Source of the DNA: Escherichia coli phage AZ21
Sequence record: LC788708.1
DNA: 64,000 bases
Strand: one strand, 5' to 3'
Positions 26,650 through 44,815 of the stretch are shown in pieces; the stretch's first letter is position 1, and each line of letters starts with the position of its first letter. The translations under genes and the position numbers were made by a program. The notes below the pieces were generated by a model that made no database searches, was not told the DNA's origin, and saw only the letters and a list, made by a program, of their open reading frames with translations.

Positions 26650-27539
26650 TGGGATTTTATAGTAATAGAAAACCAAAAGGTGTAACTGGTAAATTCGCAG
26701 TTGAAGAAAGACCTTTTCCACCGGTCGATGTAGAGAAACTACGTGAACTTCTAGAAATGCTAGAAGGTTGCCATGAACGTTGTTATTCTGAACTCTCTTT
26801 AAATGAGAAACGTGTTGTTGAGATGTTCTGTATTCGTTCAGCTAGAACAGCTAAAGGTACTTCTCCAAAAGATGAAGTAAAAGAGTACAGAGTTCTAGTG
26901 ATGCATGCTTGGGCACAACGTTTTGCAGTTCATTCGCTTCAGGAATGGTTTAATCTTCCAGCCTATAAAGATTTTCATGTTTACGAAGATGAGGTTATGA
27001 ATTATAATGAGTTGTATGGTTTGTCCTTCAAAAAGACAGGCTCACCGATGCATGATGCACTCAATTCATTCCCTGATCATTACCTTCCAGTTCGTGAATA
27101 TAGAGATCGTGAAGGAAATAAACCCTGCTTCACTATTTGGAATAAGTCTAAGACGATATCTGATCTAGATAATTATTGGTTTCGCACAAAAGAAGGATTC
27201 CTAGGAACAGAACCTTTACCTAAGGATCTCAAACCTATCCTTCCGCCTGCGAAACCTAAACATGAAGTAACGATTGCTATTAATAGAATAATTCTAGGAG
27301 CAGATGATCTTACTAAACAAATCGCCGCAGTTATCGCAGTTCTGTTTGACGGTACAAATTCTTCTGCACGTTATGAGAAGCTAACGGATAACAAATTGCA
27401 GATACCTAACGAGTTGTATGAGAGTTCGTGCAAGATCTATGATAACTTTAGTAAAGTAGATTACCCCGTGAGATCCATTAAAGAACTCATGGAGTATGCG
27501 GAGATGGGGATGAAAGGAAATCTCATGTTCGATGAATAA
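26649..27539 (+). CDS. hypothetical protein
   Basis: 296 aa ORF, last gene before the repeat-rich gap. Confidence 0.5.
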   Translation: MGFYSNRKPKGVTGKFAVEERPFPPVDVEKLRELLEMLEGCHERCYSELSLNEKRVVEMFCIRSARTAKGTSPKDEVKEYRVLVMHAWAQRFAVHSLQEWFNLPAYKDFHVYEDEVMNYNELYGLSFKKTGSPMHDALNSFPDHYLPVREYRDREGNKPCFTIWNKSKTISDLDNYWFRTKEGFLGTEPLPKDLKPILPPAKPKHEVTIAINRIILGADDLTKQIAAVIAVLFDGTNSSARYEKLTDNKLQIPNELYESSCKIYDNFSKVDYPVRSIKELMEYAEMGMKGNLMFDE

Positions 27540-27546
27540 ACTCTAC

Positions 27547-27575
27547 TTGACGTTATGATTTCTGCATGTTATAAT
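27547..27575 (+). promoter_or_regulatory. sigma70 promoter firing into the non-coding repeat region
   Basis: TTGACG-17-TATAAT with no ORF downstream for about 1.8 kb. Confidence 0.55.
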
Positions 27576-27903
27576 AACTCTATGAAATAACATAGAATAA
27601 AGAGATCCACCCGGATACGGATGGTGGATGGGAAACTTCTATTTCCCCCGTAGCTTGTCGGAGGGCTAGGGAAATCTTAAGAAGTTTTGTACCATCTCAC
27701 GCAATTCGTATCCCAGGGGTGGAGCATCTCTTCCAATCTTTGGGGATCTTATACTTAAATTAAAGGTAAAACTTTTGGTCACATAATTTACATTCAAGAT
27801 GATACACTGGTTGCCGCCATTCTTCCTAGGATGGCACAACACTTTCTTCTAGACTCCTAAGTTTCTAGGAATACTAACTCTAGAGTTTACACTAAACTTT
27901 GAA

Positions 27904-28641
27904 TCGGATTCGCACATGCTCTAGGGCAGTTTTTCATCTACTATAAATATCCTAGGCCGGTTTTCCTATACAGGGCGGTTATGGGGAGGGCGGTTATTTC
28001 TAGACAATAAAATTTACTCTTGTCAGTCCAGAAATTACTGTCGGATTTGCACATTGTGTTTCTAGAAATTTATGGTCGGATTTGCACAATTGCCTAAGTT
28101 TTTAGGAACATATAATCTCCTGAAAATGGCAGCATTATTTCGGGCCGAAGGCCCATGATTGCCTGAGTTTTTTTAGAGACACAGAAATTTTCACTTGTCA
28201 AGCTATTTTGCCCCATTTTGCTAATAAAATTTTACTTTATCTCCCCTAATCTCAAATTAACCCAAATCTTCTCAACTCTTCTCCAAAATCCCCGCAAATC
28301 AGGTGCTCCGCACCAAACATGCGCCCCTCCCGTAGTTCCCCCAAGTTTCTCTCGATCTCTCAACTTCTCCCCAAACTCATACAATCACACACCCTCCAAT
28401 CGAAGTCACAAAAATCTTGTCGGATTCGCACAAATAAACCCATGTCGGATTTGCACATATTCTAGTTAATTCCACAGGATTGATGCGCAGCATCGGATTG
28501 CTGGAGTTTTTGGGAGAATTCATTGTCGGATTCGCACACTATAAAAATTTTTCGGGTCGGATTTGCACACTACCAAAAATTGTCGGATTCGCACATACAC
28601 GCCCACGCGTAATCCATGGGGGCAAATGTCGGATTTGCACA
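27904..28641 (+). repeat. array of 9 direct copies of GTCGGAT(T/C)(T/C)GCACA
   Basis: Copies at about 27904, 28040, 28075, 28419, 28444, 28525, 28557, 28582, 28628, same orientation, irregular spacing, non-coding. Confidence 0.8.
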
Positions 28642-28647
28642 AAAGCG

Positions 28648-28663
28648 CAGGGCAATTGCCCTG
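28648..28663. repeat. perfect 16-bp palindrome CAGGGCAATTGCCCTG
   Basis: Exact reverse-complement symmetry. Confidence 0.8.
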
Positions 28664-28705
28664 CTTGCCTGAATGCGAATGATAATGAGAATCATTTGCA
28701 TTTAA

Positions 28706-28858
28706 AAAGCGGAATGAGAATGATAATAATTCGCATTTAAGAATGGAAGTGAGAATTATTCAGGAAGTGAAACGATTCTCATTTAAAAAGTGAAACGATT
28801 CTCATTTAGAAAGTGAAACGCGAATGATAATGATTCGTATTTAAGAATGGAAGTGAGA
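28706..28858 (+). repeat. two about 42-bp direct repeats flanking a 23-bp tandem repeat
   Basis: ATGATAAT.ATTCG.ATTTAAGAATGGAAGTGAGAA at about 28706 and 28817; GTGAAACGATTCTCATTTA(A/G)AAA x2.5 at 28767-28822. Confidence 0.75.
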
Positions 28859-28874
28859 AACACTATTATTTAAG

Positions 28875-28964
28875 TTATCCACAGACTTATCAACAGCACG
28901 ATTTGACTTGACAGAATCCTAGCCATTTTGAGGCGTTATCAACAGACTTATCAACAGCTTATCC
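28875..28964. promoter_or_regulatory. DnaA-box cluster
   Basis: TTATCCACA at 28875-28883 plus three TTATCAACA variants within 90 bp. Confidence 0.55.
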
Positions 28965-28984
28965 TACTGTATAAATATACAGTA
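28965..28984. promoter_or_regulatory. LexA (SOS) box, near-consensus
   Basis: TACTGTATAAATATACAGTA, i.e. CTGT-N8(AT-rich)-ACAG, one spacer difference from the E. coli consensus. Confidence 0.6.
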
Positions 28985-29177
28985 TTCCTATGCAGTGAAT
29001 AATTCTAATATACAGCTAAAACGCTCTCAAACGCATTCTAACGCGTTTAATTTTGGTGGGGATACTAAAACAAGGGCAAAATTGGAGGAGGCTTGAAAAT
29101 TAGTTAGCTCGCTAATGATCACACACGGCGACACGTAACACCCTAACCATTAGCAGGCTAACCATCGCGGGCGTGGT

Positions 29178-29200
29178 CAAATGAGAATGATTCTCATTTG
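29178..29200. repeat. perfect inverted repeat CAAATGAGAAT-G-ATTCTCATTTG
   Basis: 11-bp arms around a single central base. Confidence 0.8.
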
Positions 29201-29350
29201 TGGATTGGGGGCGCTTCCTGATAGTTGCGCCCCGTGATTATTATAGTAGGGGGCAACCGTTACGCTTTGCCCACTCCCGCCACTCATCTTGGTGCCTAGA
29301 CTTGCGACGGCGTACTAAAAACCGCTTGTACCAGTGATTAAACCATCGTT

Positions 29351-29554
29351 TCATAAATCCTCCTCCGGTAGTCGATGCGTGATCTTTTCCTCCTCCCCAT
29401 AGGAATCCACCAAATACTGATAATAACCATCGTGATCATAAATCACTTTATCATATTCCCCACGCTCGACCGCTTGCCGATTTTCCAACGTATCAGGCAC
29501 AAAGAAAGTATCAACGGTAACAGTAGTTTTAGTTACAACAATTTTATCACTCAT
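29351..29554 (-). CDS. hypothetical small acidic protein
   Basis: 67 aa; last gene of tightly packed minus-strand operon; start overlaps upstream tiny ORF. Confidence 0.45.
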   Translation of the reverse strand: MSDKIVVTKTTVTVDTFFVPDTLENRQAVERGEYDKVIYDHDGYYQYLVDSYGEEEKITHRLPEEDL

Positions 29555-29680
29555 AATGCCATCGCCCCTAGAATGAGAATGATTATCAATATCATTGTGA
29601 AGCCATTACCAAATCGTAAACGCTGGGAATGTTTCCCAGCGGTATTATTAGACTTATGGCTTTGTGTTTTTCGCCACCAG

Positions 29681-29881
29681 CTATTCACGGTAGACGCTCC
29701 ATCCGTCTAGCTTCCATTCTTCCCCCTTGCGAATATTGAAAAACCAATCATTAAAATTGTAACCATCTTCTGACATGATCACGCCGTTTTCTTTCATGTA
29801 CAAAAATTCATCACTAGTAAAATATTGATTACTAACTTTAAAACCTTGTTTCATTTTTTCTAGTGCTTCATCTTTAGTCAT
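29681..29881 (-). CDS. hypothetical small acidic protein
   Basis: 66 aa; ATGA-type overlap with upstream gene. Confidence 0.45.
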   Translation of the reverse strand: MTKDEALEKMKQGFKVSNQYFTSDEFLYMKENGVIMSEDGYNFNDWFFNIRKGEEWKLDGWSVYRE

Positions 29882-30222
29882 TGCGCCACCTTTCGAAACG
29901 CTGTTTCAATACTATCCGCAGTGGATTGAATATATGCGCCTTTGAGTATCAGCCGCTCGGTGCATATCTTGCGAAAAATATTAATAAAATCGTCCTCATT
30001 TTCTGCGATTAATGCCTCACCCATAACCTGAACGTCGCAAGATGCAAAGGTCAAAAATTGAAACGCTAGTTCACGGGCAACGACCGCATTGATTTTATAA
30101 TGCGCCTTGCCTTCATAGATATTAATAACGCCCTTATAAGCTGGCGAAAGCTGATTTAAGTAGTTTGCTAATAATGCCGGACGGCAATTAGCAACAAAAC
30201 GATTGCCCTCATAAATAACCAT
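29878..30222 (-). CDS. hypothetical protein
   Basis: 114 aa, minus-strand operon member. Confidence 0.5.
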   Translation of the reverse strand: MVIYEGNRFVANCRPALLANYLNQLSPAYKGVINIYEGKAHYKINAVVARELAFQFLTFASCDVQVMGEALIAENEDDFINIFRKICTERLILKGAYIQSTADSIETAFRKVAQ

Positions 30223-30349
30223 TTGATAGTCTCCCGATTAGATAGCCAGATAATAACATAAAGATCCCCAATAAAAGAGGATCATTCTTAAATAAGGTGG
30301 CGGTAAAACCGCCAACCATTGCAAGGAGAATAACAATAATGCTTTTCAT
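30209..30349 (-). CDS. small membrane protein (46 aa)
   Basis: MKSIIVILLAMVGGFTATLF hydrophobic ORF; ATG overlaps stop of upstream gene (ATGA) and its stop overlaps next start. Confidence 0.3.
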   Translation of the reverse strand: MKSIIVILLAMVGGFTATLFKNDPLLLGIFMLLSGYLIGRLSNGYL

Positions 30350-30558
30350 AGTACCCCACGAAACGCAGCGTAAAAGGTGGCAAAGTGTTTAACTGTTTCA
30401 GCAATCACGTTGCCGCGCTTATCAAATTTCTTTTCTGTAACACGAAAGGCATTTTTATTACGTGCTACATATTCGATTTTACAATCTTCCCGCTCGAACG
30501 TGTTAACATCCACCAGCTTAAAGCCTTTCGAACGTGCAAGAGAAACGTTGCGGATCAT
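30346..30558 (-). CDS. hypothetical basic protein
   Basis: 70 aa ORF in minus operon. Confidence 0.45.
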   Translation of the reverse strand: MIRNVSLARSKGFKLVDVNTFEREDCKIEYVARNKNAFRVTEKKFDKRGNVIAETVKHFATFYAAFRGVL

Positions 30559-30560
30559 TT

Positions 30561-30743
30561 TTATTCCCCTTTACTAGTCATGCAGCCCAGCAGATAAGAA
30601 AATACAGCGATGCCAGCACCAATAGTAACCATTGGTTTTATATTTACTAAACCGCAATAGGAATCCTGAATACCATAAGCGGTGGCGAAAAGAGTCAAAA
30701 TAGCGCCCAAGATACCCGCTAAAATAGCTCGAAAAATAACCAT
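30561..30743 (-). CDS. small membrane protein
   Basis: 60 aa with two hydrophobic helices; preceded by GGGGCG-loop-CGCCCC hairpin. Confidence 0.45.
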   Translation of the reverse strand: MVIFRAILAGILGAILTLFATAYGIQDSYCGLVNIKPMVTIGAGIAVFSYLLGCMTSKGE

Positions 30744-30792
30744 TTGTAATACTCCTCTAGTTAGTGGGGCGAAAGTAACGCCCCGTTATTAA

Positions 30793-31023
30793 TTACATTA
30801 AAATAATTTTTGCCGCTTGTTTTTTGGTACAGTGTTCCGCTTTCAGGGTGTCCAGCAAAAAGCCCGCCGTTTGCTGATCGATTTTATCGGCATTATATAG
30901 TTCTTGGATGGTGTTATAAGTTTTAGCAATGCCGTATTCTTGTACCATTTCTTGAATAATCCAGCGATTTGATACCCAGCCTTTACCAGTGAAAAGAGCG
31001 TCAGAAGAAGAGTAAGCAACCAT
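30793..31023 (-). CDS. hypothetical protein
   Basis: 76 aa from ATG with RBS GGAGGCTTAAAATG (minus strand); longer track ORF lacks RBS. Confidence 0.45.
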   Translation of the reverse strand: MVAYSSSDALFTGKGWVSNRWIIQEMVQEYGIAKTYNTIQELYNADKIDQQTAGFLLDTLKAEHCTKKQAAKIILM

Positions 31024-31086
31024 TTTAAGCCTCCAAATTTTTGGGAAAATTTTCAACCGTCCTCAAACGGTGTAAAGGCATTATAA

Positions 31087-31115
31087 CAAAAAAGGCCGCC
31101 ATAAAAGGCGACCTT
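31087..31115 (-). terminator. rho-independent terminator (minus strand)
   Basis: AGGTCGCC-loop-GGCGGCCT hairpin followed by TTTTTT on minus strand, right after the stop of 31130-31624. Confidence 0.5.
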
Positions 31116-31129
31116 TACAAAACTTTACA

Positions 31130-31624
31130 TTAAACTACTTGTAAGGATTCAATATTGAAACATCGTTTCAGTTCGTCATGCAAAACGGCATATTCATCCC
31201 ATCGGGTACTATCAGGAATATAAACAAGCTGTTTTAATCGGTTTGCATATATTACCGCTTTGTTATCAATTATCTCGACGCCACCATATTTAATAATTAA
31301 TTTCATGACGGAATTAATAGGATCGCCGCCGTTTACATATGCGCCGGATTTACTTAATTGATAATGATAAAGGCTTGCATATACGTTTTCATTTTCATAC
31401 CATTCGCCAGTCTCTTCGTCTTCATAGCCATCGCTACCAAAACGAGAAGCATTATCAACAGCCATTTCATGAGCAAAAGCGTCCAGATCCGTACCAGCAG
31501 GAACAAAATATTCCTCGGTATTCCCTTCCCCGCAATAGCCAGTATGACAATCGACTAAAATGATCATATCATGTTTAGCCTTGCTCACTTCCCCTAGCGA
31601 GAAGCCGTATTTTTCTTCTAACAT
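31130..31624 (-). CDS. hypothetical acidic protein
   Basis: 164 aa from ATG with RBS GGAGAC; acidic run DGYEDEETGEWYENENVY. Confidence 0.5.
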   Translation of the reverse strand: MLEEKYGFSLGEVSKAKHDMIILVDCHTGYCGEGNTEEYFVPAGTDLDAFAHEMAVDNASRFGSDGYEDEETGEWYENENVYASLYHYQLSKSGAYVNGGDPINSVMKLIIKYGGVEIIDNKAVIYANRLKQLVYIPDSTRWDEYAVLHDELKRCFNIESLQVV

Positions 31625-31688
31625 AATTAGTCTCCTATTAATTAACAAGGAAATAGTAAAGCGGGGAAATAATCCCCGCTAGATATTA

Positions 31689-31922
31689 TTACTCGTTTTC
31701 GGTGTTAGTGGTAAAAGTAGAGATATCGATACCTTTTACCATTTCATCGATCATCTCAGCGATGTTAAAACTTTGCACCATTTCTAACATTGCCGCTTCC
31801 ATAGCCGCCCCTGCTACCGCTTTCGCTTTCTGATTAGTCGGGGCGTACTGGTCAACCGCTACACTCAGCAGGTTAGCGATCACTACACGACCAATCGGCG
31901 TATCAATATAGCCTTTGATCAT
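31689..31922 (-). CDS. hypothetical protein, possibly C-terminal part of a frameshifted gene
   Basis: 77 aa ORF overlapping end of 31903-32694 by 20 nt; reachable by +1 shift at an A7 run. Confidence 0.4.
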   Translation of the reverse strand: MIKGYIDTPIGRVVIANLLSVAVDQYAPTNQKAKAVAGAAMEAAMLEMVQSFNIAEMIDEMVKGIDISTFTTNTENE

Positions 31923-32694
31923 AAACGGTGCTTTTTTTAGCCGCTACTTTCGTGATTTGAGTTAGTGCAATTTTACCAGCTTCCAGTTTTGCAGCGTTTA
32001 CAACAGCGGATTTATTAGCGGCAACGATATTAGCGATCTTGGTCATGGTATTTTTTCCTTTGTTTTCAGTAGTTTGAGTATTAACGCTTTGAGTGTTAGA
32101 GCTTACAACCTGTTTTTCAATATTGTCAACTGGTTTTAGTGTAAATCCAGCATTTGCAACGTTTGATTCATTCCCATACTCTAAATAATCACTAGGGATC
32201 AACATGTTGCCACTAGCGCGTTCAAAACATAACACGCCAGTTGTAGAAATTACATTACTATCAGCACTTTTGTAATTAGCTGATAGTTCACGCCAAATGC
32301 TAGTTAATAACGATCCGACACTATCAGTCCTGATATTACTTACTTTTGTTGCTGTTACTTGCTCTTTTTCTTGCACGTTATATAATCGCGCAATGTAACC
32401 ACTATTAGATTCACTATAACCAACAATGATAAAATCAATATCTCTTCCACGTTGATTGCGGAAAATGTGATAATCACGGTTGAAAATTACTAGCGCCCTT
32501 TTCTGGTCTAGTAATTGTGTGAAATCTTCAACTGAATAATGAGTACCCTCATCGTCTAAAATTCTATCATGAATCTTTTCGATAATAGTAGCGGTATGCT
32601 GTACGCTTGCCGCGCTACTACCCTCTAACAGATTGCGCAAACTGCCTTTAATAATAGTGGCGTTTGCTGGTACTGCAATTCTTACAGTAGACAT
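31903..32694 (-). CDS. hypothetical protein (first gene of minus-strand operon)
   Basis: 263 aa ORF, Ser/Thr/Asn-rich middle, Ala/Lys-rich C-terminus; ends just after A7 homopolymer. Confidence 0.5.
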   Translation of the reverse strand: MSTVRIAVPANATIIKGSLRNLLEGSSAASVQHTATIIEKIHDRILDDEGTHYSVEDFTQLLDQKRALVIFNRDYHIFRNQRGRDIDFIIVGYSESNSGYIARLYNVQEKEQVTATKVSNIRTDSVGSLLTSIWRELSANYKSADSNVISTTGVLCFERASGNMLIPSDYLEYGNESNVANAGFTLKPVDNIEKQVVSSNTQSVNTQTTENKGKNTMTKIANIVAANKSAVVNAAKLEAGKIALTQITKVAAKKSTVYDQRLY

Positions 32695-32960
32695 TTTATT
32701 TTGTCTCCCTCGTTAATCGGTGAGTGAATGATAAGGGTAATTTTCTAGCATAGGCAAATATTATTTTACTTTTTTATTTTCCTTGCCTAGCGTCTAATTT
32801 TATGCTAACCGCGCAGCGGTGCAATAAAGAGCAAACCACGGCGAAGCCACCAGCCCGACGCATTGAGGCTTTACTTTAATATTACCTTACAGCGTTTAGC
32901 TCGTTAGAATGCGTTTTGGGCCACTTAAAATTGATTGCAGTTGTTAACACTACCTTTCTA

Positions 32961-32980
32961 CCCTGTATATTTATACAGTG
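32961..32980. promoter_or_regulatory. LexA (SOS) box
   Basis: CCCTGTATATTTATACAGTG with perfect CTGT-N8-ACAG core, about 270 bp upstream of the first minus-strand gene. Confidence 0.55.
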
Positions 32981-32988
32981 GAATAACC

Positions 32989-33397
32989 TGTGGATAAGTC
33001 TGTGCAAAAGTCCTTATATCACCGCCTATCGTGTCAAGTTATTTTGTGCTGTGGAAAACATTGTGGATAACTTAAATGATAGTGCTTCTCACTTAGGCTA
33101 ATGATTTCTTATAGTTATTATTTCTCATTAATTTATAAGTATATTATATATTATCAAATAGTTAGTTGGCTAATGAGATTTTCCGTGATTAATAGTCTGC
33201 TAATAATTCAGGTCGTTACAATCCACCAGCATGATTATCATTCTAGCAATTATTAGTCTGCTATCTTTCCGATACATACTAACAAATAAAAGTCAATTAA
33301 TTTATTTCATAAAATAAGTAGTTATCCACTGGAAAATAAAAGTCAAGTGGATAACTAGGAAAATTTCATTTTTGCTTTTGGGGATAAGTTATCAACA
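32989..33397. promoter_or_regulatory. DnaA-box cluster
   Basis: TGTGGATAA at 32989 and 33062, TTATCCAC at 33322, GTGGATAA at 33347, TTATCAACA at 33389. Confidence 0.55.
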
Positions 33398-34583: not shown

Positions 34584-34991
34584 ATGACTAACGCAAAAAC
34601 CGCAAAATTCGCATGGAATGAAGAAAACACTCAGAAAGCTGTTACCATGTACCAGCAGTTAATCAACGAAAACGGTTTAGATTTTGCAAATAGCGACGGC
34701 CTGAAAGAGATTGCAAAAGCAGTAGGCGCGGCCTCCCCCGTATCCGTTCGGTCAAAATTGACCAGTGCAAAAGCCTATCAAAAAAGCGATAAGCCGCGTA
34801 AAGTTGGCGGCGGTAGCTCTGTGCGTAAAGCTCACTATGTGCGAGTAATTGCAAAACACGCTATCGATTCCGGTATTATCAAAGACGCCGATGATCTGGC
34901 AAGCCTTGAAAGTGCTAAACTGGAAACGCTGGACGCGGTGGCGCAACTGTTAGGCGTTGCCGATGAAGTAAAACAAGCCGTAGGTGAATAA
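34584..34991 (+). CDS. pre-early hypothetical protein
   Basis: 135 aa, RBS AGGAG; followed by GCCCCCT-loop-AGGGGGC hairpin. Confidence 0.5.
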   Translation: MTNAKTAKFAWNEENTQKAVTMYQQLINENGLDFANSDGLKEIAKAVGAASPVSVRSKLTSAKAYQKSDKPRKVGGGSSVRKAHYVRVIAKHAIDSGIIKDADDLASLESAKLETLDAVAQLLGVADEVKQAVGE

Positions 34992-35366: not shown

Positions 35367-37037
35367 ATGATTATTTCCGCAGAAAAACAAACCGTTATCC
35401 TGAAAATGGCCGCTGATTTCAATTTCTACGGTAAACGCCTGCGCGCCACTAAACTGGAGGTCTGCGACGATATTTCAAAAGCGGTCTACGATACAACGAA
35501 ACACTCCACCGCTATCTGCGACTGGCTGGAAGCAAATAAACCAGCGAAACCAAAAGCGGCAAAAGTAGCAAAAGCCATTAAAAACGGTGAGCGCCCCGAA
35601 GCGGCTGGGATTGTTTCTAGTACCGTGGAGCAGTGGGAAGTAAAACAAGGTAAACGCTTTATTATTACATCGATTCAGAATAATACTTTCCCGCATAAAA
35701 ACTTTTTAGCCTCACTGGAGCAATTTGCTAAATATATCGGGGCTGATTTGCTCGTTTCTAAGTATATTTATAATAAAAACGGTTTTCAAAATGGGGAAGG
35801 TGCTGACGGAATCAAATATGATTCCGCGTTTGATAAATATATTTGCAGCAAAAACGTGTTTTTGAATAACCGCCGCTTTGCTTTCATGGCTGAAATTAAT
35901 GTTTTGCCTACCGCAGATTATCCGCTTTCTGGATTCGCAGAAACTGCAACGGCTTTAAATATTGAAGGTCTGGCAATTGGTCACGCTAAAATTACCGCTG
36001 AAAGCGTACCAGCTTTAAAAGGTGAAGTAGTGCGCCGTATGTACTCAACCGGAACGGCAACGCTCAAAAACTACATTCAGCAGAAAGCAGGACAAAAGGC
36101 CGAGGCGCTGCATAACTTCGGTGCGCTTATTGTTGAGTTCGACGAGGACGGGGAATTTTTTGTACGCCAGCTTGAAACGATGGACGAAAGCGGGGTATTT
36201 TATGATCTGAATGTGTGTGCTACTCCTGCCGGATGCTATGAAACATCGGGGCATGTTTTAGGCTTGCAGTATGGCGATATTCACGCCGAAAAATTAGATG
36301 AGGAGTGCGCCGCCGCGTCATGGGGGCATGGTGATACTTATGGGCTAGTAGATATTCTTAAACCAAAATATCAGTTTGTGCATGACGTGCATGATTTTAC
36401 ATCGCGCAATCATCATAACCGCGCATCGGGTGTATTCCTAGCAAAACAGTACGCCGCCGGACGTGATAAGGTTATTGATGATCTTATCGATACGGGGCGC
36501 GTGCTGGAATCAATGGAGCGTGATTTTTCTCAAACAATCATTGTTGAATCGAATCACGATTTGGCGTTATCCCGTTGGCTTGATGATCGTAATGCTAACA
36601 TCAAAGACGATCCAGCAAACGCAGAACTGTATCACCGCCTGAATGCTGCAATTTACGAGGCAATCGGTGAACATGACGAAACGTTCAACGTGCTAGATTA
36701 TGCGCTGCGCAAGGTTGCAGGTTGTGAGTTTAACGCCATTTTCCTGACCACTGACCAATCTTTCAAGATTGCAGGCATTGAATGCGGCGTACACGGTCAC
36801 AACGGCATTAATGGCAGTCGTGGCAATCCCAAACAATTTAAGAAATTGGGCAAGTTAAACACTGGTCATACTCATACGGCAAGCATTTACGGCGGGGTAT
36901 ATACCGCTGGCGTAGCTGGTAGTCTGGATATGGGTTACAACGTTGGCGCGTCAAGCTGGACGCAAACTCATTTAATTACCTATGCAAACGGTCAGCGCAC
37001 TTTGATTGACTTTAAGAACGGTAAATTTTTTGCGTAA
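35367..37037 (+). CDS. A1: A1-like pre-early protein, calcineurin-like metallophosphatase (Mre11/SbcD-type nuclease fold)
   Basis: 556 aa (size of the T5 A1 product as I recall it); GDIH, ESNHD, HGHNG, GHTHT metallophosphatase motifs in order; sits with dmp-like gene. Confidence 0.7.
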   Translation: MIISAEKQTVILKMAADFNFYGKRLRATKLEVCDDISKAVYDTTKHSTAICDWLEANKPAKPKAAKVAKAIKNGERPEAAGIVSSTVEQWEVKQGKRFIITSIQNNTFPHKNFLASLEQFAKYIGADLLVSKYIYNKNGFQNGEGADGIKYDSAFDKYICSKNVFLNNRRFAFMAEINVLPTADYPLSGFAETATALNIEGLAIGHAKITAESVPALKGEVVRRMYSTGTATLKNYIQQKAGQKAEALHNFGALIVEFDEDGEFFVRQLETMDESGVFYDLNVCATPAGCYETSGHVLGLQYGDIHAEKLDEECAAASWGHGDTYGLVDILKPKYQFVHDVHDFTSRNHHNRASGVFLAKQYAAGRDKVIDDLIDTGRVLESMERDFSQTIIVESNHDLALSRWLDDRNANIKDDPANAELYHRLNAAIYEAIGEHDETFNVLDYALRKVAGCEFNAIFLTTDQSFKIAGIECGVHGHNGINGSRGNPKQFKKLGKLNTGHTHTASIYGGVYTAGVAGSLDMGYNVGASSWTQTHLITYANGQRTLIDFKNGKFFA

Positions 37038-37803: not shown

Positions 37804-37883
37804 TAGTTGATTTATTATTGCCCGCTGATAGATAGCGGGCAATGCTGGATAAACTACATCCCTTTAATGGAGAACGTAACAAA

Positions 37884-38618
37884 ATGAATCAAGTTAAAAC
37901 GAATATTTCCCGTAACTTCCCGCATATTTCCCGCGTCATGATCTGGGATCTTGATGGCACTATCGTTAATTCATTCCATCGTGTAGCGCCTTGCTTTGAT
38001 AGTGAGGGTAATCTAGATTTAAATAAGTATAAGAATGAGGCTTGCAAACATGATTTAATAATGCAGGATACTTTATTGCCTTTGGTGGAATATATGCGCC
38101 AATGCATGAATGACGCAAATACTTTAAACATTATTTGTACCGCTCGATTAATGAGCAAATCGGATTATTATTATTTGCGCAAACAAGGCTTGCGAGGGCG
38201 TGGGGATAGCAATATCCGCGTGTTTTCCCGCGACACGCTGCATAAATATTTTGAAGCTGATAAGGTTAGCGAGATATACCACAGTAAAGACGCAGTTTAT
38301 AAATCGTATTACTTTGAATTATTTAAACAGCTATATCCGAACGCTGATTTCACAATGATTGATGATCATAAAGGTGTATTATCAGCGGCGGCGTCATACG
38401 GATTTAAAACGCTAGACGCGCAAGCCGTTAACGATATTCTATCAATCGGCGTGGCATTGATAGGCGGAACCTTTATTGATGAATCTCTCGATGATGATAA
38501 TGATTATCAGTTCCTAGCCGATCGATTGAAATTATGTTGGGAAAGTATGACCGAAGAAGAACGCGCAGAATATAGTTGCAGCCCGCAACAATATATTGAG
38601 AAATTAAAAGTTGCGTAA
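37884..38618 (+). CDS. dmp: HAD-family 5'-deoxyribonucleotidase (dmp-like)
   Basis: VMIWDLDGTIVNS (HAD motif I DxDGT); RBS GGAGAACGTAACAAAATG; pre-early context. Confidence 0.65.
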   Translation: MNQVKTNISRNFPHISRVMIWDLDGTIVNSFHRVAPCFDSEGNLDLNKYKNEACKHDLIMQDTLLPLVEYMRQCMNDANTLNIICTARLMSKSDYYYLRKQGLRGRGDSNIRVFSRDTLHKYFEADKVSEIYHSKDAVYKSYYFELFKQLYPNADFTMIDDHKGVLSAAASYGFKTLDAQAVNDILSIGVALIGGTFIDESLDDDNDYQFLADRLKLCWESMTEEERAEYSCSPQQYIEKLKVA

Positions 38619-38782
38619 TAATTAAAGTTGAAATAGTTTCATCCTGCAATTAAAATGGTTGCGGGATGAAACAATTACCCTGCTAATAGTAACGGGGGTG
38701 GCGGTTAGCAGACTAAGTATTCTCCCCCAACCCACTGGACACACCTCCATGTGTAATCCTATGAAATTTGGCAAAAGTCAAA

Positions 38783-39028
38783 TTAGCGCATAGAAGGGTC
38801 ATCAAACCTGTGCTCTGGTCTGAACTCACGGAATCTCTTCCACGACGCCCGAGATCCATCAGACCACTCCCGCTCAAACTCCGCACGTTTCTCGTCAAAC
38901 TTCCGCTCCCTTTCCGCAATCTCTCGCGTCACCCCCGCGATATATTCCCGATGCTTGTTAATTGCCGCAGTTGTCCCGAAAACTCCCGCGAGTATCCCGA
39001 TAATAAAAGCAATTACAATACTAAACAT
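38783..39028 (-). CDS. small membrane protein
   Basis: 81 aa, N-terminal TM helix then charged tail. Confidence 0.4.
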   Translation of the reverse strand: MFSIVIAFIIGILAGVFGTTAAINKHREYIAGVTREIAERERKFDEKRAEFEREWSDGSRASWKRFREFRPEHRFDDPSMR

Positions 39029-39215
39029 CTAATTCCCTCTCAATTTGCAGAATACGGGTACTATCACAACGTTGCAGTAGTGCTAGCTTTTCTAGAGTAA
39101 CTTGTTGTTGTTTTACCTGAGCTTCTAGAGTTTTTAGGCGGAGATACACGATACGAGAGACAATGAGGATTACCCAGACTAATATTACCATTAGTGTAAT
39201 TGCCGCTTCCATCAT
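39021..39215 (-). CDS. small membrane protein
   Basis: 64 aa, TM helix then coiled coil. Confidence 0.4.
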   Translation of the reverse strand: MMEAAITLMVILVWVILIVSRIVYLRLKTLEAQVKQQQVTLEKLALLQRCDSTRILQIERELDV

Positions 39216-39318
39216 TTACGTTTCTCCAATAATAAGGTTTCAATTCTAGCTAAATGATTATCTAAAATACATTGTCCAATAATCACAATCCCTAGTAGTG
39301 CAATAATTACCCATTCCA

Positions 39319-39510
39319 TTAAATCCACCCCGCCATAGCTGCTAACCAAAAACCTACGAAGATTAGGAATAATACAAAACCAAATCCGTAAATATTAATC
39401 CACGCTTCATATACTTCTCCGCGTCTGTTCTTTCTTTTATTTGACATATCTTTCATGCTCCAATAAATGTGGTATCTGGAATATTTTACAGTTTGTGCAC
39501 AACCAACCAT
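39319..39510 (-). CDS. small membrane protein
   Basis: 63 aa, C-terminal TM helix. Confidence 0.4.
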   Translation of the reverse strand: MVGCAQTVKYSRYHIYWSMKDMSNKRKNRRGEVYEAWINIYGFGFVLFLIFVGFWLAAMAGWI

Positions 39511-39623
39511 GCTTGTGACTTCCTAGAAGGACTTCTCATTTTCTTGCATAGTGGTTTCTGCCAATATACCATCCAAAAAATAAAAAATTTAGTTTACTTG
39601 GATGTCGTTTTGCTTTATACTAA

Positions 39624-39890
39624 TTACAGGTAGTTAGATTGCTCTAGTTTAAATTTACAATCACCGTATTTAAGATCAAACTGACTGAGATCCCACCACC
39701 CAAACTTAGTACGGAGCTGTACTACTGGGAAGCGATCTCCCTTAATACGAACTTTTTGAACTTTGAGGCCATAATGTTCTTCTCCTGCACCTCCAAAAGA
39801 TTTTACAAATCCCGTACAAAATGGTTTGGGAGCAGGTGCACAACCAGATAACATAACTGCGGCAACTAGTGCAATCACAAACTTTTTCAT
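39624..39890 (-). CDS. llp: lipoprotein, Llp-like superinfection-exclusion (receptor-blocking) candidate
   Basis: 88 aa; signal peptide with lipobox LSGC; divergently placed immediately upstream of receptor-binding protein gene as in T5. Confidence 0.6.
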   Translation of the reverse strand: MKKFVIALVAAVMLSGCAPAPKPFCTGFVKSFGGAGEEHYGLKVQKVRIKGDRFPVVQLRTKFGWWDLSQFDLKYGDCKFKLEQSNYL

Positions 39891-39975
39891 ATTTATCTCT
39901 CCATTTCTAATTTATGAATCTATTATAGCAAAATAGAGGGATGAAAGCAAATACATTTTTATAATAGGAGATTAT

Positions 39976-41733
39976 ATGGGTTTTTTCGCTGGTAAGTATA
40001 GCGATGGTAAGACCGTACTATCTTTAAATACTGAATCTGGTGGTGACATTAATCGTCACTATAGTCCAAATGCCAATAGTATTTTTCATAGTGATATGCC
40101 ATTTGTCCTAGTTGATGGTACTTATGAGTCTGGGTTAGGTGATGCCGGTAATGGGTTTTTTGTATGTCAGATGCCCTCTGACATAATAAATATTAAATCT
40201 AACGATCCTGGTAGAGTTATACTAACTGCTATTGAAATTAATGGTACTCACAGAGCTTTTCTTAACGGTACTCAGAGTAAAGTAGGTCAAACTATAGCTG
40301 CCACTCAAGCAGATCCTTTTAGATCTTTTGCTAGTGTTTCCCAGACTAGTGGATTTGCATTTGGTAATAGCCTGGCATCTGGTACATATAACTATAATCC
40401 ATCTATAGGGCATGAAGAATCTATTTCTAGAAATGGTACTGGTGGAACCACCCTACATAGTACGTATCATGGTATAGTTAGGCCAGGTGCAGGAGCTCCA
40501 GTAGGGGTTACTGTTGCAGAAGCTTTTGCACAGTTGGGTTTTCCTACTAATAGTAGTACAGTACCTATAGATGGTAATAATCAATATTACTGGGACCCAG
40601 GATGGATGTCTCCTTTAGGATCAGCACACAGAGGGCACGATTGGTTTTATGTTTGTAACTCTAACATACGTGGGTATGGTGGGGTAAGACAAGGTCTTCC
40701 TGGTAGTGTAAATACTATGTATCATGATGGTGGCAACAGATTTGTTTGTAGGGGTTCTACAACTAATTTAGCTAATCAATCTAGTGATTCTACAATACTA
40801 CAAGATTGGTATAACATAACTCCTACTAAGGTTATTTGGTACGTCTTGAATTTAAGATATTCTGGCGGCAATATGAGTATCTCTGGTAATCCTTTTACTG
40901 GTTCAGATATTCTTATATCTCCTTCTAATTTCATAATTAAAGGGGTTAGTCTTCCCAATACTGGATACAAGTTTATTAACCAGAACGCTTTCGGTAACTT
41001 AGGTTATAGACCAGATATGGAATATATTGGAAATAATGCAGCGTACACTGGGGCCTTCGGAGATACTACTGCAAGGTGTGAACTTGTAGGTTCTAGTAAT
41101 GGGGGTTTATGGTCTCCTGTGGACTATGGAGGGGCTAAGTCTCAAATTAGTATTTACAAATTCGGAGCTGGTAAGCAATGGTACGTAAACTCTAATGATA
41201 ATACTATCGGTAATGAACACGGGGTTGTTTGGGGGCCTTCAGCAGTTCCACTACGACTTTTTAGCGGAAATGTTGGTAGTTCTTACATGGGGGATGATAT
41301 TACTCCCAGCTATCCAGGAACTGGAGATAGATACGTTGGTTTATCAACTATTGGGCTAGGTATACCGGGTGGCAATGCTACCGTAATTCTTACCACTGAA
41401 GTTATATCAGGTAATCTTAACTGCGCGGGTGTTCCCGCTAATACATGGAATAACGGTGTATTTCAGGTTCAAGGAAGAAGAGCATATAGTTATAGTAATG
41501 GGGATGCAATATTTCATCAGATTTTAACATTACCAGTAGGGTATTTAGTACCTTTTCATACTACATCTGCTTTTAGATACACACCTAACAATGCCCTAAG
41601 TAGAAATAGTTTTATATACACTGCTAAAAATCTGGGGAATGGAAATGTAGAGCTAGGGGTAGTTATGCACGTAAGTTTAGGTAGTGCAGTTTTCCTACCT
41701 AGATTAAGAGTAACAGTTCAACGCCTAACCTAA
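39976..41733 (+). CDS. oad: receptor-binding tail protein (pb5-like)
   Basis: 585 aa; position next to llp-like gene; N-terminus (MGFFAGK...IFHSDM) and C-terminus (VQRLT) resemble what I recall of T5 pb5, with a diverged central region. Confidence 0.6.
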
Positions 41734-44388: not shown

Positions 44389-44815
44389 TACTAAGTACAA
44401 ACGTGATGCCATTTCCATAATGAGGGATGGTATAAAATCTAGGTATAGTAAGGATGGTTGCTGTGCTATATGCGGTAGTGATGAAGCCCTAGAACTTCAT
44501 CACTATCATACTATATCTCAACTAATTAAAAATTTTGCTAAAGAACTCCAGCTGGATTTCACTGATGAGAATATCGTCCTTTCAAATAGGGAAGCATTCT
44601 ATAAGAAATATGAGCATGAATTAGTTAGAGACGTAGTAACATTATGCCAGCATCATCACCAATTATTACATAAGGTTTACACAAAAGAACCTCCTTTATT
44701 TTCTGCTAATAAGCAAAAAGTGTGGGTTCAAAAGCAGAAAGACAAATTACAGAATCCTCAAGAAAAGACACAAGTCAAGACTGAAACAAAATCAGGATTC
44801 GCAAGGTTCTTATAA
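44378..44815 (+). CDS. HNH endonuclease
   Basis: CAICGSDEALELHHYH...N...LCQHHHQLLH HNH motif; RBS GGAGGAATATG. Confidence 0.7.
   Translation: MATNTKYKRDAISIMRDGIKSRYSKDGCCAICGSDEALELHHYHTISQLIKNFAKELQLDFTDENIVLSNREAFYKKYEHELVRDVVTLCQHHHQLLHKVYTKEPPLFSANKQKVWVQKQKDKLQNPQEKTQVKTETKSGFARFL

What the first reader, a model, noticed from the sequence alone, without database searches (positions are those of the whole stretch)
28965..28984. Near-consensus LexA box in a lytic phage
TACTGTATAAATATACAGTA differs from the E. coli SOS-box consensus by a single spacer base. It lies immediately next to DnaA-box-like sites and just downstream of the repeat array. A virulent phage has no obvious need for SOS control, so host LexA may be used as a timing or dosage sensor, or the palindrome may bind a phage protein.
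Basis: partly seen in the sequence, partly recalled or inferred. Interest (0 to 1): 0.65.

Follow-up and report, generated by a model that had tools for sequence, protein, structure and literature searches.

The report
Conserved LexA box in T5-type phages
A near-perfect binding site for the host DNA-damage repressor LexA sits beside DnaA boxes in the DNA that T5-like phages inject first, and it recurs across the whole phage family, which gives a testable host-protein lead on the unexplained two-step injection pause.

Summary
TACTGTATAAATATACAGTA lies at 28965-28984. It scores 25.1 bits on a LexA matrix, above recA, lexA and umuDC; 64-kb shuffles averaged 13.1.

The window is Tequintavirus AZ23, a virulent T5-like phage. 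The site lies in the non-coding "injection stop signal" region of the terminal repeat, about 800 bp inside its inner boundary. It is 8 bp from a pair of DnaA-type boxes. A second copy at 32961-32980 ends the partner arm of a long inverted repeat.

The unit of DnaA boxes plus LexA box occurs in about 540 phage records. LexA boxes next to DnaA boxes also occur in Sugarlandvirus, Pectobacterium, Proteus, Vibrio and Aeromonas relatives, where the A1 protein is only 34-42% identical and the flanks no longer align. CTGTAT-N6-ATACAG stays fixed.

No conserved promoter overlaps either box. No pre-early protein has a LexA-like domain. Papers I could search describe the DnaA boxes but never mention LexA.

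Best reading: host LexA binds beside DnaA on the last DNA to enter in the first step, forming a boundary or holding complex for the pause. An SOS-timed release and binding by phage protein A2 remain live rivals. This is a new variant of a known kind; interest 0.6.

The parts
28965..28984 (.). LexA box 1 (the finding): TACTGTATAAATATACAGTA. It forms the inner end of the inverted-repeat arm that Davison calls IRD', in Repeat Region 3 (the injection-stop region) of the terminal repeat.
   Evidence: Scores 25.06 bits. A box of at least 23 bits sits at the equivalent place in every T5-like locus with enough upstream DNA, and CTG/CAG are never altered.
32961..32980 (.). LexA box 2: CCCTGTATATTTATACAGTG. 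It is the partner copy in the other arm (IRD, Repeat Region 2), in the non-coding gap between the two divergent pre-early gene blocks.
   Evidence: 21.5 bits. The 17-nt core ACTGTATAAATATACAG is identical between the two arms while the outer flanks differ. In some phages it has decayed (CAG to CAA, 16-17 bits).
28936..28956 (+). Pair of DnaA-type boxes (TTATCAACA gac TTATCAACA) 8 bp from LexA box 1. A third degenerate box, TTATCCTAC (28959-28967), overlaps the first 3 nt of the LexA box.
   Evidence: The offset from DnaA pair to LexA box is the same in all T5-like contexts. These are the paired boxes described by Davison.
28875..28895 (+). Second DnaA box pair (TTATCCACA gac TTATCAACA) of the same arm (IRC' side).
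   Evidence: family D11.
32989..33009 (-). DnaA box pair next to LexA box 2 (TGTGGATAA at 32989-32997, TGTGCAAAA at 33001-33009), 8 bp from the box.
33050..33070 (-). Second DnaA box pair of the partner arm (TGTGGAAAA at 33050-33058, TGTGGATAA at 33062-33070).
28851..28984 (.). Inverted-repeat arm (IRD'-spacer-IRC'). Its partner arm is 32961-33094. About 83% complementary, with about 4 kb between the arms.
   Evidence: pairs I1, I2.
32961..33094 (.). Partner inverted-repeat arm (IRC-spacer-IRD).
   Evidence: pairs I1, I2.
29016..29045 (.). Motif CTAAAACGCTCTCAAACGCATTCTAACGCG, 30-60 nt beyond LexA box 1 on the side away from the DnaA boxes. It recurs, with variation, beside the LexA boxes of distant family members. 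Part of it (AAACGCATTCTAACG) is also present beside box 2, within the repeat arm 32895-32916.
   Evidence: pair I8. It matches no host-factor consensus that I recognise, so it is a candidate site for a phage protein.
28150..28175 (.). Estimated inner boundary of the terminal repeat. LexA box 1 lies about 790-815 bp inside it.
   Evidence: In records that carry both terminal repeats, the record end lies 778-949 bp beyond the box in most copies and 583 bp in one (L007, L008, L010, L011, L012, L015, L018, L024, L027, L033). Davison's description agrees. This is an inference, not a mapped end.
29351..32694 (-). Block of pre-early ORFs transcribed toward LexA box 1 and bracketed by the two LexA/DnaA units, with the LexA boxes on the inner sides.

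Best explanation
The palindrome is a genuine, very high-affinity operator for the host SOS repressor LexA. T5-type phages keep it as one element of a fixed unit of host-protein sites: two to three DnaA boxes, then the LexA box 6-9 bp further on.

The unit lies in the last few hundred base pairs of DNA to enter the cell in the first injection step. A second copy lies in inverted orientation about 4 kb further in.

Proposed mechanism. As this DNA emerges into the cytoplasm, a LexA dimer and DnaA load side by side, roughly two helical turns apart centre to centre. Together they form a stable protein-DNA boundary at the mouth of the injection channel. This boundary helps define and hold the pause between the two injection steps. 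It could block RNA polymerase arriving from the adjacent pre-early gene block from reaching, and pulling on, DNA still threaded through the envelope. It could also anchor that DNA. The phage proteins A1 and A2 later override it.

On this view LexA is used mainly as an always-present architectural or roadblock protein, not as a sensitive SOS switch.

What is shown: the sequence, its position, its score, the partner copy, and family-wide conservation of the box and of its pairing with DnaA boxes. What is inferred: LexA occupancy (my estimate about 0.75) and the boundary or holding role (about 0.35).
For: 1. The box scores 25.1 bits, above recA, lexA and umuDC boxes checked in MG1655 DNA.

2. It is present at the same place in all 39 A1-anchored T5-like loci that hold enough upstream DNA (the 40th, L029, has only 2.7 kb upstream and shows no site). 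Variation falls only at positions that real LexA sites tolerate, and CTG/CAG of box 1 are never hit.

3. An ascertainment independent of the LexA box, anchored on the DnaA pair, finds the box at a fixed offset in every T5-like context. Unrelated contigs with similar DnaA arrays lack it.

4. About 540 phage records hold the 60-bp unit, against about 531 records with A1 of at least 60% identity. They typically hold 2 or 4 copies, as expected for one or two terminal repeats.

5. In Pectobacterium phages (A1 65-67% identical) the only block still aligned is DnaA-DnaA-TTATCC-LexA.

6. Klebsiella, Proteus, five Vibrio phages (three of them assigned to two genera, two unclassified) and Aeromonas relatives all carry LexA boxes of 17.7-25.1 bits upstream of A1/A2, although A1 is only 34-42% identical in the Proteus, Vibrio and Aeromonas phages. 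The 99th percentile of shuffles was 15.5-19.3. Nearly all these boxes lie within 6-20 bp of a consensus DnaA box.

7. The box nearest the injection stop is the universal one. The inner copy is degenerate in some phages. It probably lies inside the hegG-017 deletion of a viable T5 mutant. Davison reports that it is absent from 'Type 4' phages.

8. From Davison's coordinates, the box is about 270-290 bp inside the calculated first-step shear point (plus my offset calculation).

9. All hosts concerned are Gammaproteobacteria, which share the CTGT-N8-ACAG LexA motif (established knowledge).
Against: No binding data exist. Everything beyond the sequence is inference.

Proteins that bind DNA already inside the cell do not obviously stop DNA that is being pushed in from the capsid.

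The roadblock idea explains box 1 better than box 2.

The phage boxes conserve TAT/ATA (positions 6-8 and 13-15) more strictly than chromosomal LexA sites do: 1.5 bits against 0.5-0.8 (partly an ascertainment effect). This could mean selection for maximal affinity, or a different ligand.

A2, an essential pre-early protein annotated as DNA-binding in the databases and described as a predicted DNA-binding protein, is also conserved family-wide at 34-46% identity. Conservation alone therefore does not separate a host ligand from a phage ligand.

The older primary papers on this region (1987, 2005, 2015) could not be read here.
Confidence: 0.4

Rival explanations
1. SOS timer or sensor. LexA bound at the boxes represses a promoter, or locks the DNA, until it is cleaved. 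Cleavage follows RecA activation caused by A1-driven breakdown of the host chromosome. Second-step transfer or pre-early shut-off is thereby coupled to host DNA destruction, or to the SOS state of the cell at infection.
For: The site is a near-consensus LexA operator. T5 degrades host DNA within minutes of the first step (papers read), which is a plausible source of an SOS signal. The LexA consensus itself contains -10-like hexamers (TATAAA / TATATT), and a weak TTAACA-16-TATATT match overlaps box 2 in this phage.
Against: The -35 elements next to both boxes are not conserved, even in T5 itself or in the distant genera. The best promoter candidates lie 130 bp or more from box 2 and do not overlap box 1. 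No ORF or Rfam RNA lies downstream of box 1 on the relevant strand. A box stronger than any chromosomal one would be vacated last. T1/T5-type phages are notorious on recA1 laboratory strains (my own knowledge, not checked here), so RecA-dependent LexA cleavage cannot be essential.
Confidence: 0.2
2. The palindrome is primarily the binding site of a phage pre-early protein. The most likely candidate is the essential DNA-binding protein A2, possibly acting with A1. Its match to the LexA box would be either mimicry, to compete with LexA, or coincidence.
For: A2 is essential and annotated or predicted as DNA-binding. It is encoded next to A1 in every family member examined. It keeps a conserved N-terminal helical region. 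A palindrome suits a dimeric protein. The phage boxes are more stringent at TAT/ATA than LexA requires. Davison proposed that A1/A2 act on palindromes in this region.
Against: A 19-of-20 match to the host consensus, kept for as long as A1 took to diverge to 34% identity, and always beside consensus sites for another host protein (DnaA), is most simply explained by a host ligand. No LexA-like or other DNA-binding Pfam domain was found in 17 pre-early ORFs. The A2 model (pLDDT 84) is all-helical with no significant PDB fold match; LexA ranked 25th at E = 5. Another family-wide motif, CTAAAACGCTCT...TTCTAAGCG, is available as a phage-protein site.
Confidence: 0.2
3. There is no specific ligand. 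The palindrome is conserved only as part of the long inverted repeat, which would be needed for DNA structure, recombination or circle formation. Its likeness to a LexA box is incidental.
For: It sits at the end of a roughly 130-bp inverted repeat. The two copies in one genome evolve in concert: the same unusual centre occurs in both Aeromonas boxes and in two of the Vibrio D308 boxes.
Against: In distant genera the rest of the repeat has diverged beyond alignment, yet CTGTAT-N6-ATACAG and the DnaA boxes persist. Scores of 18-25 bits are far outside the shuffle distributions in each of 12 genomes.
Confidence: 0.05

Closest known systems
E. coli SOS boxes (LexA operators of recA, lexA, umuDC, sulA and others)
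   Same: Same 20-bp dyad, TACTG(TA)5CAGTA. The phage site scores above recA, lexA and umuDC on the same matrix. The positions that vary among phages are the ones that vary among chromosomal sites.
   Different: It does not overlap a conserved promoter. It lies in a 1.8-kb non-coding region of a virulent phage. It is always paired with DnaA boxes. It occurs as an inverted pair about 4 kb apart, and four times per virion genome where both terminal repeats are present.
T5 injection-stop region: Repeat Region 3 with IRD'-spacer-IRC', palindromes palC/palD and paired DnaA boxes (Heusterspreute 1987; Wang 2005; Davison, bioRxiv 10.1101/866236)
   Same: This is physically that region. Shared features: non-coding DNA in the left terminal repeat, an inverted-repeat partner in Repeat Region 2, DnaA boxes in pairs 3 bp apart, and nine DRD repeats. 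By position, the box is probably the palindrome catalogued as palD at the edge of IRD'. That identification is an inference, because the figures are not held.
   Different: The preprint never mentions LexA or SOS (0 occurrences). It treats the palindromes as possible cleavage sites for A1/A2. Conservation of a LexA-consensus box beside the DnaA boxes in Vibrio, Aeromonas and Proteus relatives is not described there.
LexA co-opted by mobile elements (CTX-phi rstA promoter; Bacillus phage GIL01 with gp7, PMC6182141; integron integrase promoters, PMC3108266; colicin operons; anti-repressors of phage 186 and Gifsy prophages)
   Same: A host LexA site carried and conserved by a mobile genetic element.
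   Different: Those are temperate or resident elements. Their box overlaps a promoter and ties induction to DNA damage. Here the element is strictly virulent, no promoter overlap is evident, and the site sits at a DNA-entry boundary.
Clusters of high-affinity DnaA boxes outside origins (datA, the oriC R boxes)
   Same: Closely spaced consensus TTATCCACA-type boxes that would bind DnaA tightly. Similar tandem arrays occur in unrelated viral contigs.
   Different: None of those is coupled to a LexA box at a fixed distance. T5 replication origins map elsewhere, according to Davison.

Membership tests
LexA operator (gammaproteobacterial SOS box) | A 16-20 bp dyad CTGT-N8-ACAG whose matrix score falls within the range of validated sites | tested here: met
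   25.06 bits for box 1 and 21.5 for box 2. The training sites score 12.4-23.3. recA, lexA and umuDC were checked in MG1655 DNA.
LexA operator (gammaproteobacterial SOS box) | More than chance would give | tested here: met
   0 of 100 dinucleotide-preserving shuffles matched within 3 mismatches. In 100 base-composition shuffles the maximum score averaged 13.1 and peaked at 20.2. Per-genome shuffles were run for 12 genomes.
LexA operator (gammaproteobacterial SOS box) | Conserved at orthologous positions, with the CTG/CAG triplets protected | tested here: met
   CTGTAT-N6-ATACAG is kept from Tequintavirus to the Vibrio and Aeromonas phages.
LexA operator (gammaproteobacterial SOS box) | Overlaps or lies just downstream of a promoter that it represses | tested here: inconclusive
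   Only weak consensus matches lie nearby: TTAACA-16-TATATT at 32944-32971 (plus strand), and TTGAGA-17-TAGAAT on the minus strand at 29030-29002, read toward the box. Their -35 elements are not conserved in T5 or in distant genera. No mapping of transcription starts was available.
LexA operator (gammaproteobacterial SOS box) | Bound by LexA in vitro or in vivo, with expression changed in lexA mutants | not testable with these tools
   This needs EMSA or footprinting, ChIP, and lexA(Def) / lexA(Ind-) hosts.
LexA operator (gammaproteobacterial SOS box) | The host has a LexA protein that recognises this motif | not tested
   The hosts named in the records are E. coli, Salmonella, Klebsiella, Pectobacterium, Proteus, Vibrio and Aeromonas. 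That these share the CTGT-N8-ACAG motif is established knowledge and was not computed here.
T5 injection-stop region (Repeat Region 3, IRD'-spacer-IRC') | Large non-coding stretch at the inner end of the terminal repeat, downstream of the rightward pre-early genes | tested here: met
   No annotated CDS between 27540 and 29350. The match to AKFV33 falls at 7.2-10.8 kb of that genome. Terminal-repeat boundary estimate.
T5 injection-stop region (Repeat Region 3, IRD'-spacer-IRC') | Inverted-repeat partner (IRC-spacer-IRD) a few kb further in, and DnaA boxes in pairs 3 bp apart | tested here: met
   compared with the description read.
T5 injection-stop region (Repeat Region 3, IRD'-spacer-IRC') | Acts in cis to halt DNA transfer at about 8% of the genome | not testable with these tools
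   This has never been shown genetically, even for T5 itself (introduction of the preprint).
Phage-encoded LexA-like repressor system (for example GIL01 gp6/gp7) | The phage encodes a LexA homologue or a LexA-binding co-factor | tested here: not met
   No LexA_DNA_bind, peptidase S24 or any HTH Pfam hit in the 17 pre-early ORFs. The A2 fold search gave no significant match. A small co-factor without a Pfam family cannot be excluded.

The most novel reading that the evidence does not exclude
The long-sought injection stop signal of T5-type phages is not a DNA structure. It is a plug or clamp built from host proteins: LexA and DnaA load onto their adjacent consensus sites as the DNA emerges. The phage's own A1-driven destruction of the host chromosome then removes LexA, either by RecA-stimulated cleavage or by direct A1/A2 action at the protein-bound palindrome. 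In this way second-step transfer is licensed only once the host genome is being dismantled.
Probability: 0.12. Interest if true: 0.85.

Novelty: new variant of a known kind. Interest (0 to 1): 0.6.

Why it matters
Two-step DNA injection by T5 has lacked a molecular explanation for more than fifty years. The cis-acting stop region has been described only as a thicket of repeats and palindromes, with DnaA boxes as the one host-factor clue.

One of those palindromes turns out to be a LexA operator stronger than any chromosomal one. It is locked to the DnaA boxes at a fixed distance and is kept across the family, from coliphages to Vibrio and Aeromonas phages. That turns a descriptive map into specific experiments with existing tools: lexA and dnaA host alleles, box mutations made with the published T5 engineering methods, and LexA/DnaA footprints and ChIP during the pause.

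It would also extend the known uses of LexA by mobile elements. So far these are prophage induction, colicins and integrons. This would add a strictly virulent phage and, possibly, a non-transcriptional, architectural role.

If LexA turns out not to bind, the family-wide CTGTAT-N6-ATACAG motif is still a defined candidate site for the essential A1/A2 proteins.

Tried and rejected
1. A promoter/operator reading. The consensus scan and a relaxed regular-expression scan found only weak matches at the boxes, with -35 elements that are not conserved. The best candidate for the minus-strand pre-early block is 32824-32797, about 140 bp from box 2.

2. The textbook T5 promoter PN25, recalled from memory, was searched for as a landmark. 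It is absent from the window and from the T5 terminal repeat.

3. A small RNA downstream of the boxes. No Rfam match was found. The hairpin-like AAACGC...GCGTTT at 29029-29048 is not kept as a hairpin in the partner arm or in other genera.

4. A phage LexA homologue. None was found by Pfam. The A2 structure model gave no significant fold hit.

5. A motif-switch test in A1-carrying phages of hosts with other LexA motifs. Rhizobium phage RHph_X3_9 proved to be an Autographiviridae with A1 in its replication module and no comparable region, so the test was uninformative. The 17 metagenomic loci with A1 at 37-49% identity have no LexA or DnaA cluster, but their hosts are unknown.

6. A paper reporting a phage protein bound at the recA and lexA promoters (JSS1_004, PMC12345140). 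By its kinase and shutoff domains it looks like a T7 0.7-type protein (my inference). Its binding was broad and described as non-specific, and I found no link to T5 pre-early proteins.

7. The moderate LexA-like site at 44916-44935 (15.9 bits) lies inside a 405-codon ORF. I take it to be conserved for coding reasons.

8. Davison's 2015 review could not be fetched. The 1987 and 2005 primary papers were not looked up, as I assumed they are not in the open library.
Full report
**1. Observation.**
The 20-mer TACTGTATAAATATACAGTA is at window 28965-28984, as stated. It differs from TACTG(TA)5CAGTA at position 10 only. Nothing within three mismatches appeared in 100 dinucleotide-preserving shuffles.

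I built a position weight matrix from 29 E. coli LexA sites recalled from the literature and symmetrised it. The site scores 25.06 of a possible 26.5 bits, above all training sites. The best score in shuffled 64-kb sequence averaged 13.1, with a maximum of 20.2 in 100 shuffles. To check the recalled sites, I fetched MG1655 DNA upstream of recA, lexA and umuD. The expected boxes are there and score 21.3, 19.4, 19.7 and 23.3 bits.

The scan also found a second strong site at 32961-32980 (CCCTGTATATTTATACAGTG, 21.5 bits). No other site in the window scores above 16 bits.

**2. What the window is.**
Window 27000-31000 is 100% identical to Escherichia coli phage AZ23 (LC788707.1; Demerecviridae, Tequintavirus). 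It is about 85-92% identical to many T5-like phages, and in AKFV33 the match lies at 7.2-10.8 kb of the genome. The phage is virulent.

The site lies in a 1.8-kb stretch with no annotated gene (27540-29350). On one side are plus-strand early genes. On the other is a block of minus-strand small ORFs (29351-32694) that run toward the site. Further right are A2 (34584-34991), A1 (35367-37037) and a 258-codon ORF at 37842-38618 that I take to be dmp, from its position after A1 and the dmp annotation at that place in related phages.

This is the first-step-transfer (FST) DNA of a T5-type phage. The non-coding stretch is its 'injection stop signal' region, Repeat Region 3 of Davison (bioRxiv 10.1101/866236). 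In records that carry both terminal repeats, the record end lies 778-949 bp beyond the box in most copies and 583 bp in one. I therefore place the inner boundary of the repeat at about window 28150-28175.

Davison's calculated shear point for the first step (9618) is about 270-290 bp beyond the box. I inferred this from an 80-bp offset between two T5 sequence records. The box is therefore among the last DNA to enter before the pause.

**3. Local anatomy.**
The box forms the end of a long inverted repeat: 28851-28984 pairs with 32961-33094, about 83% complementary. The second LexA box is the equivalent end of the partner arm. Within the arms, the 17-nt core ACTGTATAAATATACAG is identical in both copies, including its asymmetric centre. 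The sequence immediately outside the core diverges.

Each arm carries two pairs of DnaA-type boxes with 3-bp spacers:
- 28875-28895 and 28936-28956 in the first arm;
- 32989-33009 and 33050-33070 in the partner arm.

The nearest DnaA box ends 8 bp from the LexA box in both arms. Centre to centre that is about 22 bp, roughly two helical turns. A degenerate third box, TTATCCTAC, overlaps the first three bases of LexA box 1.

The two units bracket the minus-strand pre-early block, with the LexA boxes on the inner sides.

**4. Conservation among T5-like phages.**
I anchored on A1, which is independent of the site, and fetched 57 loci from IMG/VR. Forty of them have A1 at least 65% identical. All 39 that hold enough upstream DNA have two LexA boxes; the 40th, L029, holds only 2.7 kb upstream and shows none. 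One box lies 4.1-8.9 kb upstream of A1 and one lies 2.4-4.4 kb upstream.

- Box 1 always scores at least 23 bits. Its variants change only positions 1, 6, 8, 10/11, 13 and 14. These are all positions that vary in genuine LexA sites. CTG and CAG are never changed.
- Box 2 is less protected. In several phages CAG has become CAA, and the score falls to 16-17 bits.

A second ascertainment anchored on the DnaA pair (ACAGACTTATNNNCAGNTTAT). It found the LexA box at the same offset in every T5-like context. Unrelated viral contigs with similar DnaA arrays lack it.

A BLAST search with the 60-bp unit finds it in 540 phage records, typically as 2 or 4 copies. That compares with about 531 records whose A1 is at least 60% identical. 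In the 30 records listed, no annotation mentions LexA.

Across 30 distinct T5-like sequences, the box is the most conserved 20-mer around site 1 (0.96 mean column identity) and the joint second most conserved around site 2 (0.92). The whole arm is well conserved, however, at about 0.9. In the Pectobacterium phages My1 and DU_PP_V (A1 65-67%), almost only GTTATCAACAGACTTATCAACAGGTTATCC plus the LexA box still aligns.

**5. Conservation across the family.**
I fetched the A1 neighbourhoods of distant Demerecviridae:

| Phage | Genus or group | A1 identity |
|---|---|---|
| Klebsiella K7PH164C4 | Sugarlandvirus | 74% |
| Proteus phage 1 | Novosibvirus | 42% |
| Vibrio D260 | unclassified | 34.5% |
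| Vibrio D308 | unclassified | 34.3% |
| Vibrio Chester | Thalassavirus | 33.7% |
| Vibrio Brizo | Thalassavirus | 32.4% |
| Vibrio VPG01 | Vipunavirus | 31.1% |
| Aeromonas AhSzw-1 | Shenzhenvirus | 33.6% |

Every one has one to three LexA boxes of 17.7-25.1 bits upstream of A2/A1. Nearly all lie 6-20 bp from a consensus TTATCCACA box. The 99th percentile of the best score in shuffles of each locus was 15.5-19.3.

The flanks cannot be aligned at this distance, yet CTGTAT-N6-ATACAG is kept. The centre and the outer two bases vary.

Copies within one genome share unusual centres. Both Aeromonas boxes read TATGGATATA or its complement, and two Vibrio D308 boxes share ATATCCATAC. The copies therefore evolve in concert while the LexA-critical bases stay fixed.

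In the Thalassavirus and Vipunavirus phages, the strong box plus a degenerate neighbour lies only at the end of the region next to the repeat boundary. Davison also reports that 'Type 4' T5-like phages lack the inner arm. The box nearest the stop, which is the one in the finding, is therefore the universal one.

The information profile of the phage boxes parallels that of E. coli sites (r = 0.77 over the half-site). It is stricter at TAT/ATA. Because the sites were selected by score, this is only a weak argument.

**6. Is it an operator at a promoter?**
The consensus scan gives TTAACA-16-TATATT overlapping box 2. It also gives TTGAGA-17-TAGAAT on the minus strand, reading toward box 1. The -35 parts of both are not conserved in T5 itself or in distant genera.

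Better promoter candidates lie elsewhere, for example 32824-32797 for the minus-strand block. No ORF follows box 1 on the strand leading away from the DnaA boxes. No Rfam family matches the region.

The T5 literature I could read places the three characterised pre-early promoters at hdi and upstream of gene 011, without sequence detail. I conclude that a classical promoter-operator arrangement is not supported. It is also not excluded.

**7. Could a phage protein be the ligand?**
None of the 17 pre-early ORFs has a LexA-like, S24 peptidase or HTH Pfam domain. A2 is annotated as DNA-binding in the databases and described as a predicted DNA-binding protein in the 2026 T5 preprint. It has no sequence relative in the PDB.

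An AlphaFold model built from 16 homologues (pLDDT 84) is all-helical, with an N-terminal four-helix domain. The fold search gave no hit with E below about 1, and LexA ranked 25th at E = 5.

A2 is nevertheless conserved across the family at 34-46% identity. Conservation of the palindrome cannot by itself separate a host ligand from a phage ligand.

Two things favour the host. First, the match is to the full 20-bp host consensus. Second, the box is always coupled to consensus sites for another host protein, DnaA.

There is also a further family-wide motif just beyond the LexA box: CTA(A/G)AACGCTCT ... GC(A/G)TTCTAA(C/G)CG, at window 29016-45. It matches no host consensus that I know and could be the phage protein's site.

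**8. Literature.**
- Davison's preprint compares 25 T5-like phages and proposes that membrane-bound DnaA on the paired boxes stops injection. It contains no occurrence of 'LexA' or 'SOS'.
- Full-text searches pairing LexA or SOS box with T5, T5-like, Tequintavirus, pre-early or injection stop signal returned nothing relevant.
- A 2026 preprint reports a viable, small-plaque T5 mutant with hegG to 017 deleted. By Davison's coordinates, that deletion should remove Repeat Region 2 with box 2. This is my inference, since no deletion end-points are given in the text.
- Davison's 2015 review could not be fetched, and I did not look up the 1987 and 2005 primary papers. An earlier mention of LexA cannot be excluded.

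**9. Mechanism.**
What is shown:
- a top-scoring LexA consensus site;
- its fixed coupling to DnaA boxes;
- its position at the inner end of the first-step DNA;
- its inverted partner copy;
- family-wide conservation of all of this.

What follows from established knowledge: an uninfected cell holds about a thousand LexA molecules, and consensus operators are bound at nanomolar affinity. The box should therefore be occupied within seconds of entry. This is inference; I rate it about 0.75.

For function I commit to an architectural or roadblock role. LexA and DnaA bind side by side on the last-entering DNA and mark and stabilise the first-step boundary. They would stop RNA polymerase arriving from the adjacent pre-early block from reaching, and pulling on, DNA still in the channel. 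They might also anchor the DNA until A1/A2 act. I rate this about 0.35-0.4.

Reasons for this choice:
- The box is stronger than any chromosomal box, so it would stay occupied even at low LexA levels.
- No conserved promoter overlaps it.
- The copy nearest the stop is the universal one.

Weaknesses:
- Cytoplasmic binding does not obviously resist DNA pushed in from the capsid.
- Box 2 is not explained by a roadblock.

Rivals:
- An SOS-timed release (0.2). This is weakened by the missing promoter and by the ability of T1/T5-type phages to grow on recA1 strains, which is my own knowledge.
- A2 or A1/A2 as the true ligand (0.2).
- An incidental palindrome (0.05).

**10. Novelty and verdict.**
LexA boxes on mobile elements are well known, and this palindrome has been catalogued before as a palindrome. 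What seems new is threefold. It is a top-strength LexA operator. It is locked to DnaA boxes. The pairing is conserved from coliphages to Vibrio and Aeromonas phages, in a virulent family, at a DNA-entry boundary rather than at a promoter.

I class it as a new variant of a known kind, with interest 0.6. It gives the old injection-stop question specific, cheap experiments.

Noticed in passing
window 28675-28737, 28816-28841, 29180-29198, 29569-29593, 38490-38514: Fur-box-like 19-mers are enriched and clustered in the first-step DNA. There are 28 matches with 5 or fewer mismatches to GATAATGATAATCATTATC, against 5.2 on average in shuffles. They include the perfect palindrome AATGAGAATGATTCTCATT at 29180-29198 and 2-mismatch sites at 29575 and 38490. 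Together with the DnaA and LexA sites, the region looks like an array of host-regulator sites. T5's receptor FhuA is itself Fur-regulated (my own knowledge).
   Followed up: partly
window 27904-28642: Nine copies of TCGGATT(T/C)GCACA (Davison's DRD repeats) at irregular spacings of 25-344 bp, straddling the estimated terminal-repeat boundary. They are iteron-like, and their ligand is unknown.
   Followed up: no
window 29016-29045 and 32895-32916; L139, L143, L145, L149 beside their LexA boxes: A further family-wide non-coding motif, CTA(A/G)AACGCTCT...GC(A/G)TTCTAA(C/G)CG, lies 25-60 nt beyond the LexA box on the side away from the DnaA boxes. It matches no host-factor consensus that I recognise and is a candidate phage-protein site.
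   Followed up: partly
window 31689-31922 and 31903-32694 (minus strand): Two overlapping ORFs together cover one Pfam family, DUF7566: profile positions 1-257 in the 263-aa ORF and 260-336 in the 77-aa ORF. This is a split, frameshifted or recoded pre-early gene.
   Followed up: no
window 29681-29881 (minus strand): A 66-aa pre-early ORF has a weak, sub-threshold match to the Thoeris anti-defence Tad2-like domain (E = 0.005, 17.8 bits against a cut-off of 25).
   Followed up: no
window 27547-27575 (plus strand): A near-consensus promoter, TTGACG-17-TATAAT with an extended -10 TG, lies just after the last early gene. It points into the 1.8-kb non-coding region toward the repeats and LexA box 1. 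Similar TTGAC-N-TGTTATAAT elements lie about 1.36-1.47 kb from box 1 in 6 of 16 related loci checked. Its transcript and purpose are unknown.
   Followed up: partly
L037 5820-5839 (Pectobacterium phage DU_PP_V); L037 and L040 about 150 bp from box 1: The Pectobacterium phages carry extra LexA-like palindromes (for example TACTGTATGCCTATACAGGT, 18.4 bits) directly abutting the other DnaA pair of the arm. In these phages, each DnaA pair of that arm therefore has its own LexA-type dyad.
   Followed up: partly
window 44916-44935: CACTGGACAAGCCTACAGTA scores 15.9 bits on the LexA matrix. It recurs at a fixed place in many T5-like loci but lies inside a 405-codon ORF (44815-46032), so it is probably conserved for coding reasons.
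   Followed up: yes
L109, L120, L128 (IMG/VR contigs unrelated to T5): Tandem arrays of GTTATCCACAGACTTATCCACAGGTTAT-type DnaA boxes occur in other viral contigs without any LexA box. The DnaA-pair syntax is therefore not unique to Demerecviridae.
   Followed up: no
window about 38620-39980: The assembly holds a single copy of the terminal repeat. The dmp end of the repeat runs straight into minus-strand small ORFs and a 585-aa ORF at 39976-41733, which by size may be the receptor-binding protein (my guess, not tested). The physical genome ends are therefore not represented in the record.
   Followed up: no
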